Source: Bacilli bacterium (GTDB taxonomy: Bacteria; Bacillota_I; Bacilli_A; RF39; UBA660). Taken from it: a stretch of DNA of 64,000 nt. The stretch is taken from NCBI GenBank assembly GCA_028694645.1, contig JAQVKM010000004.1, forward strand, positions 79,365 through 143,364, written 5' to 3'. Within the stretch, counting starts at the first letter, position 1. The number at the start of each line of letters is the position of its first letter. Of this stretch, positions 1,246 through 20,591 are shown piece by piece. The translations under genes and the position numbers were made by a program. The notes under the pieces are model-generated. The model did not search any database, was not told where the DNA came from, and worked only from the letters and a program-made list of their open reading frames with translations.

Positions 1246-3741
1246 ATGAAATTTTTTACTAAAATATTTGATCATGAATATAAAGAATTAGAAAAATTTA
1301 AAAAAATAGCAGATCAAGTAATGGAATTAGAATCAGTAATTGCAAAATTAACTGATCAAGAATTAAAAGAAAAAACAGAAGAATTTAGAAATAGATTAAA
1401 AAATGGGGAAACATTAGAAGATATCAAAGTAGAAGCTTTTGCCGTAGCTAGAGAAGCAGCTTATCGCGTAATAGGAGAAAAACCGTATTATGTTCAAATA
1501 TTAGGTGGACTTGCGATTCACTATGGTAATATAGCTGAAATGAAAACAGGTGAAGGAAAAACTTTGACTGCAACCATGCCAGCTTATTTAAATTCTTTAA
1601 CTGGACTTGGAGTTCATATAATAACAGTAAATGAGTATCTTGCTGGAAGAGATGCTTCTTGGATGGGAGAAATTTATCGTTTTTTAGGATTAACAGTTGG
1701 AATTAATTATAGAGAAAACACTCATAGCGAAAAAAGATTAGCATATGAATGTGATATCATGTATACAACAAATAACGAATTAGGATTTGATTATTTAAGA
1801 GATAACATGGTTGTTAAAGCAGCAGATAGAGTTCAAAGAAAATTAAACTTTGTTATAATTGATGAGGTTGATTCAGTTTTAATTGATGAAGCAAGAACAC
1901 CGCTTATTATATCAGGAGGACATGTTGAATCAGCTAATCTATATTTAGAAGCAGATCGTTTTGCTAAATCATTAAAAGAAAATGATGGATATATATATGA
2001 TGAAAAAACAAAATCTGTAACCTTAGATGATAAAGGAATTAAAGAAGGAGAAAAATTCTTTAAATTAAACAATCTATATGATATAAATAACACTAATTTA
2101 GTACATTATATTAATCAAGCTTTAAAAGCAAATTATGCTATGAAAGCCGATGTTGATTATGTAGTACAAGATAATAAAATAGTTATTGTTGATCAATTTA
2201 CTGGGCGTTTAATGGCAGGAAGAAATTTCTCAGAAGGATTACATCAAGCTATTGAAGCTAAAGAAGAAGTAACAATTCAAAGAGAAACTAAAACTTTAGC
2301 AACAATAACATTCCAAAATTTATTTAGAATGTATAATAAATTATCAGGTATGACAGGAACTGCAAAAACAGAAGAAGAAGAATTTAGAGAAATATATAAT
2401 ATGTATGTTATACAAATTCCTACAAACAAACCTGTTATTAGAAGTGACTATGGAGATTTAGTATTTGCTACTAAAAAAGGTAAATATAAAGCTATAGTTG
2501 AAGAAATAAAAGAAAAACATGCTAAAGGACAACCAGTATTAGTAGGTACTATAGCTGTTGAAACAAGTGAATTAATAAGTTCCTTGTTAAAAAAAGAACA
2601 CATTCCACATGAAGTATTGAATGCTAAAAATAATGCTAGAGAAGCAGAAATTATAGCTAAAGCTGGTGATAAAGGTGCAGTAACAATTGCAACAAACATG
2701 GCTGGACGTGGAACAGATATTAAGCTAACAGATGAAATTAAAGCTCTTGGAGGGCTTTGCGTTATTGGGACTGAAAGACATGAATCAAGACGTATTGATA
2801 ATCAATTAAGAGGACGTTCAGGTCGTCAAGGAGATCCAGGTTATTCACAATTCTGTGTATCATTTGAAGATGAATTAATGGTTCGTTTTGGAACAGATAG
2901 AGCTAAATCTTTATTAGCAAGAGCTGGATTTGGAGAAGACGCTTCAATTAGAGTTGGAATGTTGACTAAATCAATTGAATCAGCACAAAAAAGAGTTGAA
3001 GGTAATAATTTTGATATTCGTAAAACTTTATTACAATATGATGATGTTATTAATAATCAAAGAGAATATATTTATGATATTAGAAATCAAATATTAGATT
3101 CTGATTCAATTCATGAAAAAGTATTAGAAAATATGAATAACTTTATTAAACAATTAGTTGATAGTCATATTATGCCAGAAGGATATTTAACAGATAATGA
3201 TTTATCTGAGATAATTGAATTTACAAATGAAAATTTACTTAGAAAAAATCAACTAAGAATTGAGCAAATTAACAATAAATCTTCAGAAGAAGTTTCTCAA
3301 ATTATTTTTGAAATAGTAGTTGAGGAGTATAATGAAAAATTAAGTCAAATTCCTCAAGAAATAGCTAATGAATTTGAAAAAGCTATAACATTAAGAGTGA
3401 TTGATACACATTGGATGAATCACATTAATACAATGTCTCATTTAAGAGAAGGTATTGGACTTAGAAGTTATGCACAAGAAAATCCTCTTCGTGCCTATAC
3501 TACTGAAGGATTTCAATTATATGATGATTTATTAAATACAATTGATAAAGAAGTTACAATTTATTTGGTTAAATCTGAAATAAGACAAAATATTGAAAGA
3601 AAACAAGTAATAAAAGGAGAAGCTGTTATAGATAGTAATAAAACAAAAAAAGCATCACCTAAGAAAGTAGAAAAAGTAGGAAGAAATGAATTGTGTCCAT
3701 GTGGCTCAGGGAAAAAATATAAACAATGTTGTGGTAAATAA
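1246..3741 (+). CDS. secA: preprotein translocase ATPase SecA
   Basis: 831 aa with Walker A MKTGEGKT, DEVD helicase box and a C-terminal zinc finger CPCGSGKKYKQCCGK. Confidence 0.95.
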   Translation: MKFFTKIFDHEYKELEKFKKIADQVMELESVIAKLTDQELKEKTEEFRNRLKNGETLEDIKVEAFAVAREAAYRVIGEKPYYVQILGGLAIHYGNIAEMKTGEGKTLTATMPAYLNSLTGLGVHIITVNEYLAGRDASWMGEIYRFLGLTVGINYRENTHSEKRLAYECDIMYTTNNELGFDYLRDNMVVKAADRVQRKLNFVIIDEVDSVLIDEARTPLIISGGHVESANLYLEADRFAKSLKENDGYIYDEKTKSVTLDDKGIKEGEKFFKLNNLYDINNTNLVHYINQALKANYAMKADVDYVVQDNKIVIVDQFTGRLMAGRNFSEGLHQAIEAKEEVTIQRETKTLATITFQNLFRMYNKLSGMTGTAKTEEEEFREIYNMYVIQIPTNKPVIRSDYGDLVFATKKGKYKAIVEEIKEKHAKGQPVLVGTIAVETSELISSLLKKEHIPHEVLNAKNNAREAEIIAKAGDKGAVTIATNMAGRGTDIKLTDEIKALGGLCVIGTERHESRRIDNQLRGRSGRQGDPGYSQFCVSFEDELMVRFGTDRAKSLLARAGFGEDASIRVGMLTKSIESAQKRVEGNNFDIRKTLLQYDDVINNQREYIYDIRNQILDSDSIHEKVLENMNNFIKQLVDSHIMPEGYLTDNDLSEIIEFTNENLLRKNQLRIEQINNKSSEEVSQIIFEIVVEEYNEKLSQIPQEIANEFEKAITLRVIDTHWMNHINTMSHLREGIGLRSYAQENPLRAYTTEGFQLYDDLLNTIDKEVTIYLVKSEIRQNIERKQVIKGEAVIDSNKTKKASPKKVEKVGRNELCPCGSGKKYKQCCGK

Positions 3742-6536: not shown

Positions 6537-6705
6537 ATGACTACAATATATTTTATAAGGCATTCAGCACCTTTTGTTGAAATTGATAATTATCAAGATT
6601 ATGAAAATGTTTTATGGTCTGAATACAATAGAAATATGATTTTATCTGTAAAAGGGGAAGATGGATCTCTATCAAGTTTTCAGACACGTTTTTCTGACGA
6701 AATCA
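6537..6705 (+). pseudogene. small ORF interrupted by IS insertion (N-terminal fragment; C-terminal remnant ~7881..8063 in same frame)
   Basis: ORF runs into the IS inverted repeat at ~6681. The same frame reopens after the IS and ends at 8063. N-term IYFIRHS is reminiscent of a histidine-phosphatase RHG motif, but the total length is only ~100 aa. Confidence 0.35.
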
Positions 6706-7623
6706 TTAAGCTAAAGATAGCAAATAATTATTATACTTCTCATTAGGAGTCATATAATCTATTTTACTATGTATTCTTGTGTTATTGTACCAACTTTCAA
6801 TAAAATTAAACAATATAAGTTTTGTATTTTCTAAATTATCATAGCTACTTAAATTTACTTCTTCTTTTTTTAATATGGCATTGAAGCTTTCCATACTAGC
6901 ATTATCGTAGGGATAACCTTTTTTACTGTATGAATGTTTTATATTCAATATTTCTAACATTTCTTCAAGTCTGATAGATGTATATTGACTACCTCTATCA
7001 GAATGTAATATGCAATCATTTTCTCTATCTCTATTAATTACAGCTCTACTAAGAGCTGTAATAACAAGATAAGTATCTATTTTTTTGCCATATGTCCAAC
7101 CAATAACCTTTAAATCAAATAAATCAATAATCACAGCTAAGTATGTCCAACCTTGTTCTTTTGTATAAATATACGTTATATCTGAAACACATTTTAATCC
7201 TGGTTTATCCGCAGTAAATTCTTGGTTTAATAAGTTAGGATAATCTTTATTAATATTAGGACTTTTACTATTATGAGGTCTAAATTTTCTATTAATAATA
7301 CTTCTTATTCCAAGAAGTTTCATTCTTTTAGAAACTCTATTTTGACATGCTTTAATTCCTTTTTTCTTTAACAAAAAAGTTATTTTAGGTGCACCATATC
7401 TATTTTTAGAATTTTTATATATTTCTTTTATTTCTTCATCTAATATCTTATTGGCTTCTTTATACATATTAGTTTGATGGTTTATATGATAATAATAAAC
7501 TGATCTATTTACTTCTAAACATTTACATAAAAGTTTAATAGAATAAATTTCTTTATTTCTGTCTATAAATTTAAGTTTATCTTCTAATCTTTCGAGAATA
7601 TGGCGACTGCTTTTTTTAATATT
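6706..7623 (-). CDS. IS3-family transposase OrfB (DDE integrase core); frame open to 7623, first ATG at 7467
   Basis: Motifs LHSDRGSQYTS and YDNASMESFN. The upstream in-frame extension reads IKKSSRHILERL. Confidence 0.8.
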   Translation of the reverse strand, partial: NIKKSSRHILERLEDKLKFIDRNKEIYSIKLLCKCLEVNRSVYYYHINHQTNMYKEANKILDEEIKEIYKNSKNRYGAPKITFLLKKKGIKACQNRVSKRMKLLGIRSIINRKFRPHNSKSPNINKDYPNLLNQEFTADKPGLKCVSDITYIYTKEQGWTYLAVIIDLFDLKVIGWTYGKKIDTYLVITALSRAVINRDRENDCILHSDRGSQYTSIRLEEMLEILNIKHSYSKKGYPYDNASMESFNAILKKEEVNLSSYDNLENTKLILFNFIESWYNNTRIHSKIDYMTPNEKYNNYLLSLA

Positions 7624-7855
7624 TCATTTTCCAATTGAACTTTCTTAAGTTCTTTTTTAATTTATCAACTTCATCATTGGTAGTATTTTTACCTGATGGA
7701 GTAGTGATTTTTTGATATTTATTAATCCAATTTGTAATTGTACTATGTCCTACGCCATATTCTCTTTCAAGTTCACTTATTGTTTTTCCATTCTCGTATA
7801 ATTTTACTATAGTCCTTATATATTCTTCATCAAACTTATTATAACTTCTTGTCAT
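7616..7855 (-). CDS. IS3-family transposase OrfA (HTH); apparently truncated
   Basis: HTH region GKTISELEREYGVGHSTITNW. Ends at TAA immediately before an A7 run. Confidence 0.75.
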   Translation of the reverse strand: MTRSYNKFDEEYIRTIVKLYENGKTISELEREYGVGHSTITNWINKYQKITTPSGKNTTNDEVDKLKKNLRKFNWKMKY

Positions 7856-8181
7856 AGAACACCTTCCTTTTTCTAAGTAATATTATTATATCACTTCGTC
7901 AGATTTTTGTGTCCTAATACCTATTATAGATCCAAAAATAGATTCATTAGAAAAAGCAAAAAATGCTCCATGTATTTTTAATAACTGGGCTAACTTCTAT
8001 AAAGGTGAATTTGTTTCAAATACAATTTTAAATGCAAATTCATTTGATAAATTAATTAAATAAAAAATTACAATTTGTAAAATAGCCTAGATAACTTTTT
8101 AGATACAAATATTTGAAAACGAGTTATAAAATTGATATAATATAAATCAAATATAAATAGAAATTTGGCGGGAGATAATTT

Positions 8182-19215: not shown

Positions 19216-19292
19216 GGGCGATTAGCTCAGTTGGTTAGAGCACCTGCCTTACAAGCAGGGGGTCATAGGTTCGAGTCCTATATCGCCCACCA
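19216..19292 (+). tRNA. tRNA-Val(TAC)
   Basis: Cloverleaf with anticodon loop CTTACAA. CCA is encoded. Confidence 0.9.
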
Positions 19293-19296
19293 TTTT

Positions 19297-19372
<76 letters not shown>

Positions 19373-19379
19373 TTATTTT

Positions 19380-19463
19380 GGAAGGGTAGCGAAGAGGTTA
19401 AACGCGGCAGACTGTAAATCTGTTCCTTCGGGTTCGATGGTTCGAATCCATCTCCTTCCACCA
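19380..19463 (+). tRNA. tRNA-Tyr(GTA)
   Basis: Anticodon loop CTGTAAA. Long variable arm. CCA end. Confidence 0.9.
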
Positions 19464-19475
19464 TAATTTTTTTAT

Positions 19476-19551
19476 TGCCTCGTAGCCAAGTGGTAAGGCA
19501 CCACACTTTGACTGTGGCATTTCGCTAGTTCGAATCTAGCCGAGGCAGCCA
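19476..19551 (+). tRNA. tRNA-Gln(TTG)
   Basis: Anticodon loop CTTTGAC. CCA end. Confidence 0.85.
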
Positions 19552-19576
19552 TTTTGAAATATTTAAATAATAATAT

Positions 19577-19652
19577 GTCTCGTTAGCTCAGCCGGTAGAG
19601 CATCTGACTTTTAATCAGAGGGTCGTGAGTTCGAATCTCGCACGAGACACCA
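19577..19652 (+). tRNA. tRNA-Lys(TTT)
   Basis: Anticodon loop CTTTTAA. CCA end. Confidence 0.9.
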
Positions 19653-19655
19653 GAT

Positions 19656-19744
19656 GCCTGAGTGGCGAAATTGGTAGACGCACAGGACTTAAAATCCTGC
19701 GAGAGTCAAATCTCGTGCCGGTTCAAGTCCGGCCTTAGGCACCA
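19656..19744 (+). tRNA. tRNA-Leu(TAA)
   Basis: Anticodon loop CTTAAAA. Long variable arm. CCA end. Confidence 0.9.
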
Positions 19745-19756
19745 ATATGAATATAA

Positions 19757-19778
19757 TCGAACAAATATGTTCGGTTTT
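19757..19778 (+). terminator. terminator after first tRNA block
   Basis: CGAACAaatatgTTCG stem followed by GTTTT. Confidence 0.5.
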
Positions 19779-19832
19779 ATTTTGTTAATTTTAATAATGA
19801 ATAAAAAAAATATAAAAAATTAATAAAATCTA

Positions 19833-19861
19833 TTGAAAATATATAAAATAACTGATATAAT
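19833..19861 (+). promoter_or_regulatory. promoter TTGAAA-17-TATAAT (extended TGn) for second tRNA block
   Basis: Consensus hexamers ~45 nt upstream of tRNA-Ser. Confidence 0.55.
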
Positions 19862-19908
19862 CATATACGTACTCGTAAATCTTTATATTTTCGAGATTAC
19901 AATTATAT

Positions 19909-19997
19909 GGAGAAATACCCAAGTGGTTGAAGGGTCCGGTCTTGAAAACCGGTAGGTCGGAAACGGCGCTAGGGTTCGAATCCCTATTTCTCCGCCA
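19909..19997 (+). tRNA. tRNA-Ser(TGA)
   Basis: Anticodon loop CTTGAAA. Long variable arm. CCA end. Confidence 0.9.
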
Positions 19998-20005
19998 TCT
20001 AATAT

Positions 20006-20082
<77 letters not shown>

Positions 20083-20085
20083 AAT

Positions 20086-20161
20086 GGTCCCGTAGTGTAG
20101 CGGTTATCACGTCTGCCTGTCACGCAGAAGATCGCGAGTTCGATTCTCGTCGGGACCGCCA
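20086..20161 (+). tRNA. tRNA-Asp(GTC)
   Basis: Anticodon loop CTGTCAC. CCA end. Confidence 0.9.
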
Positions 20162-20170
20162 TTTATTTTT

Positions 20171-20246
20171 GGCTCTGTAGCTCAGTCGGTAGAGCAAGGG
20201 ACTGAAAATCCCTGTGTCGATGGTTCGATTCCATTCGGAGCCACCA
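20171..20246 (+). tRNA. tRNA-Phe(GAA)
   Basis: Anticodon loop CTGAAAA. CCA end. Confidence 0.9.
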
Positions 20247-20357
20247 TTTTATAAGAAAAGAACAATAAGTTCACTAAAAATATATTAAATAAGATTCCAA
20301 TAATGATTGTTGGTTTTTTTATTAAAAAAAATAAATTTAGAAAATTTTAAAAAAATA

Positions 20358-20386
20358 TTGCTAAAACAATAATATTGTGGTAATAT
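20358..20386 (+). promoter_or_regulatory. promoter TTGCTA-17-TAATAT with extended TG for tRNA-Arg/Pro
   Basis: Hexamers at the correct spacing ~40 nt upstream of tRNA-Arg. Confidence 0.5.
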
Positions 20387-20426
20387 TATACTTGTATTTG
20401 TTGAGTTTTCTCAACAATAAAGTATC

Positions 20427-20503
20427 GCGCTCGTAGCTCAGCTGGATAGAGTGTTTGGCTACGAACCAAAAGGTCAGGGGTTCGAATCCCTTCGAGCGCA
20501 CCA
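20427..20503 (+). tRNA. tRNA-Arg(ACG)
   Basis: Anticodon loop CTACGAA. CCA end. Confidence 0.9.
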
Positions 20504-20514
20504 TAATAATTTTT

Positions 20515-20591
20515 CGGGATGTGGCTCAACTTGGTAGAGCACTTGGTTTGGGACCAAGGGGTTGCAGGTTCAAATCCTGTCATCCCGACCA
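20515..20591 (+). tRNA. tRNA-Pro(TGG)
   Basis: Anticodon loop TTTGGGA. CCA end. Confidence 0.9.

What the first reader, a model, noticed from the sequence alone, without database searches (positions are those of the whole stretch)
7605..7660. IS3-family element: OrfA and OrfB are not connectable by a single -1 shift, probably a 1-nt deletion in an A-run
OrfA's frame contains the canonical slippery heptamer A AAA AAG (TTA AAA AAG, about 7648..7657). A -1 shift there reads ...KKELKKVQLENEILKKAVAIFSKD*, a motif I recall as typical of IS3 OrfA C-termini, and then stops. OrfB's frame opens only at 7623 across a second A7G run and is +1 relative to annotated OrfA. If the first run were A7 rather than A6, OrfA would read through to ENEILKKAVAIFSKD. 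OrfB would then be reached by a -1 slip on A AAA AAA G. So this copy appears to carry a homopolymer deletion that truncates OrfA. Alternatively it is a sequencing error.
Basis: partly seen in the sequence, partly recalled or inferred. Interest (0 to 1): 0.5.

Follow-up and report, generated by a model that had tools for sequence, protein, structure and literature searches.

The report
IS3 insertion sequence with one-base deletion
This is an ordinary IS3-family jumping gene in which one A is missing from a run of seven, splitting its small regulatory gene across two reading frames and probably disabling this copy.

Summary
A 1273-bp IS3-family insertion sequence lies on the minus strand at 6662..7934. 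The N-terminal 66 codons of OrfA, its C-terminal 24 codons and OrfB lie in three successive -1 frames.

All 16 close relatives (86-99% nucleotide identity, from at least 12 samples) carry one more base at the first run. They read TTAAAAAAAGAAC or TTAAAAAAGGAAC, where the window reads TTAAAAAAGAAC. Against the 98.8% group, this gap is the only indel in 1274 aligned columns. Adding the A gives a 90-aa OrfA that is 98% identical to real proteins. A -1 shift at the conserved A AAA AAA G then gives a 383-aa fusion that matches the IS3 transposase model over its full length (362 bits).

About 70 more distant relatives have a single-frame OrfA with OrfB at -1.

Whether the deletion is a real mutation or an assembly error cannot be settled without reads. 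A second assembly agrees, and the window shows no sign of homopolymer errors, so a real and recent mutation is more likely. The in-phase A AAA AAG is a by-product of the deletion, not an evolved signal. This is an ordinary decayed IS copy of low interest.

The parts
6662..7934 (-). Complete IS3-family insertion sequence. It is 1273 bp here and 1274 bp in intact relatives. Its termini are 5'-TGGATCT...AGATCCA-3'.
   Evidence: Similarity to 16 relatives inserted at different sites starts exactly at 7934 and ends at 6662. The OrfAB reconstruction matches NF033516 at 362 bits.
7890..7934 (-). Left imperfect terminal inverted repeat, about 45 nt with 31 of 45 positions matching the right repeat. 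It starts with TG.
   Evidence: Read directly from the sequence and compared with the reverse complement of the right end.
6662..6706 (-). Right imperfect terminal inverted repeat, ending in CA.
   Evidence: L088 and L089 share this end.
7616..7855 (-). OrfA as it stands: 79 aa, made of 66 native residues (helix-turn-helix) plus 13 out-of-frame residues, NLRKFNWKMKY plus stop. It is deposited in NCBI as MDD3453344.1.
   Evidence: The repaired version matches Pfam HTH_Tnp_1.
7652..7660 (-). First A-run, TTAAAAAAG (A6 at 7658..7653). This is the site of the 1-nt deletion. The deletion leaves an in-phase A_AAA_AAG heptamer.
   Evidence: Relatives read TTAAAAAAAG or TTAAAAAAGG here. It is the only indel in a 1274-column alignment.
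7584..7652 (-). Displaced C-terminal segment of OrfA, ELKKVQLENEILKKAVAIFSKD* (the leucine-zipper-like part). [quoted passage not shown]
   Evidence: It is identical to the C-terminus of P0001 and of the 90-aa cluster members.
7610..7617 (-). The family's real recoding site, A AAA AAA G. It is phased in the OrfA C-terminal frame, and a -1 shift here enters OrfB.
   Evidence: [CT]TAAAAAAAG is conserved in nearly all of about 85 loci. The fusion built at this site matches the IS3 model over its full length.
6706..7623 (-). OrfB frame: 305 open codons carrying the DDE integrase core (HTH_21, rve, rve_3). It has no internal stop. The first ATG is at 7467.

Best explanation
The element is a single copy of an IS3-family insertion sequence in an uncultured gut-type 'Bacilli bacterium' MAG.

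**How intact relatives work.** They encode a 90-aa OrfA with a helix-turn-helix followed by a leucine-zipper-like segment. They make the OrfAB transposase (about 383 aa, DDE/rve core) by a -1 frame change on the conserved A AAA AAA G near the end of orfA. The change could be ribosomal slippage or insertion of an extra A by RNA polymerase.

**What changed here.** One A has been lost from an upstream A7 tract (A7 to A6, at 7653..7658), most likely by replication slippage in the homopolymer.

- OrfA now ends after 66 native plus 13 aberrant residues and lacks its zipper segment.
- The transposase can be made only if two independent -1 events occur about 40 nt apart.
- Unstimulated slippage on such heptamers is below about 1% in E. 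coli. OrfAB output should therefore fall by roughly two orders of magnitude.
- This copy is in effect a recent pseudogene: non-autonomous, or at best very leaky.

**Shown.** The missing base relative to all relatives. The frame layout. The intact OrfB.

**Inferred.** That the deletion is real in the DNA, that it arose by slippage, and that it inactivates the copy.
For: - **Frame layout:**
- **Missing base:** sixteen relatives at 86-99% identity from different samples and insertion sites all have one more base at the first run. Against the 98.8% group, the A-run gap is the only indel, alongside 10 substitutions.
- **Repair restores known proteins:** the repaired OrfA is 98% identical to P0001. 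In the 90% cluster only this member is 79 aa. The repaired OrfAB scores 362 bits against NF033516 over the full profile.
- **Family rule:** single-frame OrfA, OrfB at -1, conserved A7G.
- **Deletion is probably real:** a second assembly (Logan, SRR22315504) is 100% identical over 6157 bp, including the A6 run. In the window, 325 A/T runs of 6 nt or more lie inside open ORFs of at least 150 codons that cover 82% of the window. The assembly is therefore not prone to homopolymer errors.
- **Deletion is recent:** OrfB is intact, and 4 of the 6 window-specific OrfB substitutions fall at third codon positions.
- **Homopolymer indels recur in this family:** L086 has lost an A from the second run.
- **Expected slippage rate:** without stimulators, frameshifting is 2-10 times a 0.069% background in E. 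coli (PMC4066793). No stable RNA structure follows either run.
- **Copy number (inference):** the copy assembles through in a 154.7-kb contig, whereas intact relatives sit on contigs of about 1-3 kb that break inside the IS. This suggests a lone copy here.
Against: - No raw reads were available. The Logan assembly may use the same reads as the MAG, so the two assemblies are not independent data.
- Only 64 kb of the genome was seen and the species is absent from the GTDB representative set. Other copies in the same genome could not be compared.
- The sequencing platform is unknown (one search found nothing).
- No experiment shows that the copy is inactive. It could be mobilised in trans by an intact copy.
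Confidence: 0.75

Rival explanations
1. Assembly or sequencing artefact. The real DNA has A7, the A6 is a homopolymer miscall or consensus error, and the element is a perfectly normal IS3 member.
For: - A single missing base in a homopolymer is the classic error type.
- It is the only indel against relatives that are 98.8% identical.
- OrfB shows no decay.
- The Logan contig may derive from the same run as the MAG and so may not be independent.
- The sequencing platform is unknown.
Against: - Two different assemblers give the identical sequence.
- The window has 325 A/T runs of 6 nt or more inside long intact ORFs, with 82% coverage by long ORFs, so systematic homopolymer error is not visible.
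- A k-mer-based Logan contig of 14.5 kb implies accurate reads.
Confidence: 0.2
2. Functional tandem recoding. The A6 form is a working, attenuated element that uses two successive -1 events. The first, at A_AAA_AAG, completes OrfA. The second, at A_AAA_AAA_G, makes OrfAB. Alternatively, the A7 tract acts as a hypermutable on/off switch.
For: - The first heptamer is in the correct phase, and a -1 slip there yields exactly the native OrfA sequence ...DKLKKELKK....
- A_AAA_AAG is among the most shift-prone motifs in bacteria with only tRNA-Lys(UUU) (PMC4066793). A tRNA-Lys(UUU) gene lies in the window.
- A small 6-bp hairpin, GAACUUAAGAAAGUUC, follows the first run.
Against: - The arrangement is unique to this copy. 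None of 16 close relatives or about 70 distant ones shows it, and only 1 of 9 OrfA cluster members is truncated.
- The in-phase heptamer is an automatic by-product of deleting one A from TTA AAA AAA GAA.
[quoted passage not shown] The fold is no more stable than shuffled sequence (z = 0.13).
- Only one insertion site with A6 is on record.
Confidence: 0.04
3. IS1447-like arrangement. OrfB really is in the +1 frame relative to OrfA and is reached by transcriptional slippage (loss of one A) in the A7 run, as in the Firmicutes IS1447 subgroup.
For: - Taken at face value, OrfB is +1 relative to the annotated 79-aa OrfA, and an A7 run lies at the junction.
- IS1447 needs at least A7 for its slippage (PMC6211511).
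Against: - The TAA stop of the truncated OrfA (7618..7616) uses the T and the first two As of the run, so removing an A from the run leaves the stop in place.
- The two frames are both open over only 5 nt (7623..7619).
- Such a product would carry 13 aberrant residues in place of the conserved ELKKVQLENEILKK segment.
- All relatives show the -1 arrangement.
Confidence: 0.01

Closest known systems
IS3 family insertion sequences using -1 programmed frameshifting on A AAA AAG or A AAA AAA (for example IS911, IS3, IS150)
   Same: - Two ORFs, with orfB at -1 relative to the end of orfA.
- OrfA has a helix-turn-helix followed by a heptad-leucine segment.
- OrfB has HTH_21 plus an rve DDE core.
- The termini are TG...CA and the length is about 1.27 kb.
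- The slippery heptamer is A AAA AAA G. A6G and A7 heptamers together make up 72% of heptamers in the IS1 and IS3 families (PMC4066793).
- NF033516 scores 362 bits against a cutoff of 160.
   Different: - This copy lacks one base in an upstream A7 tract, so orfA is split over two frames.
- No downstream stimulatory hairpin or pseudoknot is predicted.
- No target-site duplication is visible.
- Protein identity to annotated plasmid-borne IS3 members is only 42-44%.
Unnamed IS3-family elements of gut Bacilli, Tenericutes, Erysipelotrichaceae and Clostridium MAGs (loci L003-L097 here)
   Same: Nucleotide identity is 86-99% for the closest relatives (L004, L092-L097, L003, L088). OrfB identity is 43-67% for the GTDB representatives. 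They share the same ends, the same A7G site and the same spacing.
   Different: Their OrfA is a continuous 90-94 aa. The window is 1 nt shorter at the first run.
IS1447 subgroup of IS3 (Clostridium thermocellum; transcriptional slippage on A9, minimum A7; PMC6211511)
   Same: It is enriched in Firmicutes, belongs to the IS3 family, has an A-run at the orfA/orfB junction, and has recoding that depends on a homopolymer.
   Different: - In IS1447, orfB is truly in the +1 frame and is reached by loss of an A in the mRNA.
- Here the family arrangement is -1. The apparent +1 relation is a consequence of the deletion.

Membership tests
IS3 family | Transposase homologous to IS3 OrfAB (curated model NF033516, cutoff 160 bits) | tested here: met
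   The reconstructed 383-aa OrfAB scores 362.2 bits, E 3.4e-108, over profile positions 1-367 of 369.
IS3 family | OrfB carries a DDE integrase core (rve) preceded by an HTH_21 domain | tested here: met
   PF00665 at 5.1e-21, PF13276 at 4.4e-14, PF13683 at 8.3e-12. The frame is open for 305 codons.
IS3 family | [quoted passage not shown] | tested here: met
   The frame carrying ...ENEILKKAVAIFSKD* is followed by OrfB at -1 across TTA AAA AAA G (7617..7610). The same holds in nearly all relatives.
IS3 family | orfA is one continuous ORF (about 90-100 aa) with a helix-turn-helix and a leucine-zipper-like C-terminus | tested here: not met
   OrfA is split. Residues 1-66 lie in one frame and residues 67-90 in the -1 frame. 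This is a lesion of this copy. All 16 close relatives and the OrfA cluster have a continuous 90-aa OrfA. It marks a defective member, not a different family.
IS3 family | Imperfect terminal inverted repeats ending 5'-TG...CA-3', with a length of 1.2-1.6 kb | tested here: met
   The termini are TGGATCT...AGATCCA, the inverted repeats are about 45 nt (31 of 45 matching) and the length is 1273 bp. The boundaries are fixed by relatives at different insertion sites.
IS3 family | Target-site duplication of 3-4 bp | tested here: not met
   The flanks are TTT and TCT. The two flanks belong to unrelated gene fragments, which suggests an IS-associated deletion. L088 and L098 also show no duplication.
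IS3 family | RNA stimulator of frameshifting (downstream hairpin or pseudoknot, or upstream SD-like element). Common in the family but not universal. | tested here: inconclusive
   No fold is more stable than shuffled sequence downstream of either run (z = +1.1, +2.1 and +0.13). GGAG lies 11 nt upstream in many relatives, but it is GGAA here and in the closest relatives.
IS1447 subgroup (+1 arrangement, transcriptional slippage) | orfB truly in the +1 frame of orfA and joined by loss of one A within an A7-A9 run | tested here: not met
   The TAA of the truncated orfA sits at the start of the run, so an A deletion in the mRNA does not bypass it. Relatives are all in the -1 arrangement. The criteria are taken from PMC6211511.

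The most novel reading that the evidence does not exclude
The one-base loss has produced two in-phase -1 slippery heptamers about 40 nt apart: A_AAA_AAG, then A_AAA_AAA_G. In a host with a shift-prone tRNA-Lys(UUU), two successive slips could still yield native OrfA and a trickle of OrfAB. More generally, the A7 tract inside orfA, which is present in many relatives, could act as a hypermutable on/off switch for IS activity.
Probability: 0.05. Interest if true: 0.4.

Novelty: new member of a known kind. Interest (0 to 1): 0.1.

Why it matters
The result matters mainly for annotation. The public record lists this locus as two ordinary CDSs: a 79-aa 'transposase' and a 304-aa 'IS3 family transposase' given an ATT start. 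It is better described as one IS3 element with a frameshift lesion in orfA plus the normal programmed -1 site.

It is also a clean example of homopolymer slippage inactivating a mobile element in a very AT-rich genome (24.7% GC). It shows too that an in-phase slippery heptamer can be a by-product of a deletion and not an evolved signal. Nothing here challenges current understanding of IS3 biology.

Tried and rejected
- **Other copies in the window:** none. blastn of the IS against the 64-kb window found only itself.
- **Source species in GTDB representatives:** absent. The best OrfB identity was 65-67%, so other copies in the same genome could not be compared.
- **JGI metagenome scan, 45-nt pattern allowing A6 or A7:** no hits.
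- **JGI metagenome scan, IS left end:** one hit, a 172-bp miniature derivative with no coding region.
- **Literature search for SRR22315504 and the MDD accessions:** nothing found, so the sequencing platform is unknown.
- **Stimulatory RNA structures after either A-run:** none better than shuffled sequence.
- **Target-site duplication:** none found.
- **Single +1 event joining annotated OrfA to OrfB (IS1447-like):** rejected. The stop codon sits at the head of the run, and the two frames are both open over only 5 nt.
- **A6 as the ancestral state:** rejected. Outgroups at 86-88% nucleotide identity and at family level all have the longer spacing.

Full report
**1. Observation**

The element lies on the minus strand.

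- **OrfA as it stands.** It starts at ATG 7855 and stops at TAA 7618..7616. It is 79 aa and ends ...NDEVDKLKKNLRKFNWKMKY*.
- **First run.** TTAAAAAAG occupies 7660..7652, with the A6 run at 7658..7653. It is phased TTA AAA AAG, so an A_AAA_AAG heptamer is in phase.
- **-1 frame.** From that point it reads ELKKVQLENEILKKAVAIFSKD and stops at TAG 7586..7584.
- **OrfB frame.** It is one more -1 step away. It opens at 7623, after TGA 7626..7624. It crosses the second run, TTAAAAAAAG (A7 at 7617..7611, G at 7610). It stays open for 305 codons to TAA 6708..6706.

OrfA as it stands cannot be joined to OrfB by one -1 shift.

**2. Identity of the element**

- With one A restored, OrfA (90 aa) matches HTH_Tnp_1 at 1.6e-11.
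- OrfB matches HTH_21, rve, rve_3 and rve_2.
- The fusion was built by adding one A at the first run and making a -1 shift on A AAA AAA G. It matches NCBIfam NF033516 (IS3 family transposase) at 362 bits, against a cutoff of 160, over profile positions 1-367 of 369.
- The boundaries come from relatives inserted at different sites. The IS spans 6662..7934, 1273 bp, with termini TGGATCT...AGATCCA (TG...CA) and imperfect inverted repeats of about 45 nt.
- The window holds no other copy.

**3. Comparison with relatives**

A protein search with the repaired OrfA returned 419 hits. The top hits are 90 aa long and 98%, 90% and 87% identical over 100% of the query. The remainder are 90-94 aa at 60-72% identity.

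I fetched the DNA of 15 near relatives from at least 12 different samples.

| Group | Loci | Identity to window | First run |
|---|---|---|---|
| Closest | L004, L092-L097 | about 98.8% | TTAAAAAAAGAACT |
| Next | L003 | 91.5% | TTAAAAAAAGAACT |
| Next | L088-L091 | about 87-88% | TTAAAAAAAGAACT |
| Furthest of the near set | L005-L007 | about 86% | TTAAAAAAGGAACT |
| Window | - | - | TTAAAAAAGAACT |

The second run, ATATTAAAAAAAGCAG, is identical in all of them.

In a 1274-column alignment, the window differs from the 98.8% group by 10 substitutions and one gap, and that gap is at the A-run. Of the six OrfB substitutions, four are at third codon positions, so OrfB shows no sign of decay.

In the 90%-identity cluster of OrfA, seven members are 90 aa, one is 115 aa, and only this one is 79 aa.

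**4. Family-wide rule**

Eighty loci from GTDB representative genomes have OrfB 43-67% identical to the window's. They come mostly from gut MAGs labelled Bacilli, Tenericutes, Erysipelotrichaceae or Clostridium.

- In nearly all of the roughly 75 loci where OrfA is detectable, OrfA is one HSP in one frame and OrfB is in the -1 frame.
- [CT]TAAAAAAAG is conserved at the junction, and the spacing to the upstream K-K codons is fixed. The window alone is 1 nt short in that interval.
- Decayed copies are not rare:
  - L086 has lost an A from the second run.
  - L010 has a stop in OrfA.
  - L052, L074, L079, L080 and L087 have frameshifts in OrfB.

Homopolymer indels are thus an ordinary route of decay in this family.

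**5. Real mutation or artefact?**

The window comes from an NCBI MAG labelled 'Bacilli bacterium'. The locus is annotated there as MDD3453344.1 (79 aa) and MDD3453343.1 (304 aa, with an ATT start) on a 154.7-kb contig.

Points favouring a real deletion:

- A Logan assembly of run SRR22315504 gives a 14.5-kb contig that is 100% identical over 6157 bp, including the A6 run and the same neighbouring genes. Two assemblers therefore agree, although possibly on the same reads.
- The window has 407 A/T runs of 6 nt or more. Of these, 325 lie inside open ORFs of at least 150 codons, which together cover 82% of the window. The assembly is not prone to homopolymer errors.

I could not read raw data or learn the sequencing platform. 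I put a real deletion at about 0.75 and an artefact at about 0.2.

**6. Mechanism**

- **Intact element (from established IS3 biology and the data above).** OrfA is translated in frame. A minority of ribosomes shift -1 on A AAA AAA G, or RNA polymerase adds an A, and this gives the OrfAB transposase.
- **Frequency of such heptamers.** A6G and A7 heptamers account for 72% of the heptamers in IS1 and IS3 family members.
- **Expected rate.** Without stimulators, frameshifting in E. coli is only 2-10 times a background of 0.069% (PMC4066793).
- **RNA structure here.** I found none more stable than shuffled sequence after either run.
- **This copy.** The deletion removes the zipper-like C-terminus from OrfA and puts two -1 events between the start codon and OrfB. 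Expected OrfAB output is the product of two small probabilities.
- **The in-phase A_AAA_AAG.** It follows automatically from deleting one A from TTA AAA AAA GAA. It is not evidence of an evolved signal.
- **Residual possibility.** A -1 slip at that heptamer would restore exactly the native OrfA sequence, and tRNA-Lys(UUU) is encoded in the window. A trickle of rescue is therefore conceivable. This is the low-probability novel reading.

**7. Rivals rejected**

An IS1447-like +1 arrangement (PMC6211511) fits only superficially.

- The truncated OrfA's TAA uses the first two As of the run, so losing an A from the mRNA does not bypass it.
- The two frames are both open over only 5 nt.
- All relatives show the -1 arrangement.

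**8. Context**

The two flanks are fragments of unrelated genes, and no target-site duplication is present.

- One flank is a 41-codon N-terminal stub at 6537..6661.
- The other is the C-terminal YoaP-like domain at 7938..8063 (PF14268, 1.9e-17, profile positions 7-44 of 44).

This points to an IS-associated deletion or rearrangement at some time in the past.

The copy assembles through a long contig. Intact relatives sit on contigs of about 1-3 kb that break inside the IS. This suggests, by inference only, that the copy is alone in its genome.

**9. Verdict**

- The element is an uncharacterised but typical IS3-family member carrying a recent single-base homopolymer deletion, or less likely an assembly error.
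- Interest is low.

Noticed in passing
window 6537..6661 (+) and 7938..8063 (+): The two flanks of the IS are fragments of different genes. One is a 41-codon N-terminal stub (MTTIYFIRHSAPF...). The other is the C-terminal YoaP-like domain (PF14268, E 1.9e-17, profile 7-44 of 44) without its upstream part. No target-site duplication is present (TTT against TCT). This suggests an IS-mediated deletion or rearrangement, not a simple insertion.
   Followed up: partly
L098 4247..4420 (JGI contig Ga0172378_10032076): A 172-bp miniature derivative of this IS. It has 56 nt of the left end joined to about 130 nt of the right end, with both inverted repeats and no coding region. It is MITE-like.
   Followed up: partly
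L086 around 1495..1505; also L010, L052, L074, L079, L080, L087: Other decayed family copies. L086 has lost one A from the second (functional) run, reading TTAAAAAAGC, which puts OrfB at +1. L010 has an in-frame TAA in OrfA. The other five have frameshifts inside OrfB.
   Followed up: partly
first run in L003, L004, L008, L013-L020, L088-L097 and others: Many intact relatives carry a second in-phase A AAA AAA G inside orfA, 39 nt upstream of the real site. A -1 slip there would end OrfA after about 70 aa (..KKRT*), giving a form with only the helix-turn-helix. The tract is not conserved across the family, so it is probably incidental.
   Followed up: partly
window 7618..7620 (ATT) / MDD3453343.1: The public annotation gives OrfB a 304-aa product starting at an ATT codon just inside the A-run, and lists the truncated 79-aa OrfA as a normal CDS. 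Neither is flagged as a pseudogene or as a programmed frameshift.
   Followed up: yes
window 7626: A window-specific C-to-T change is synonymous in the OrfA frame (AAC to AAT). It creates the TGA that closes the OrfB frame upstream. In the closest relatives that codon is CGA and the OrfB frame opens further upstream.
   Followed up: partly
window 19216..20591 (+): A cluster of 12 tRNA genes: Val, Thr, Tyr, Gln, Lys(UUU), Leu, Ser, Met, Asp, Phe, Arg and Pro. Overall GC of the window is 24.7%.
   Followed up: no
L088 1293..1904 (-), L089 1268..1879 (-), L092 220..507 (+): In three relatives the IS sits directly next to a serine-recombinase (Resolvase, PF00239) gene. This hints that these copies may lie within a larger mobile element.
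   Followed up: no
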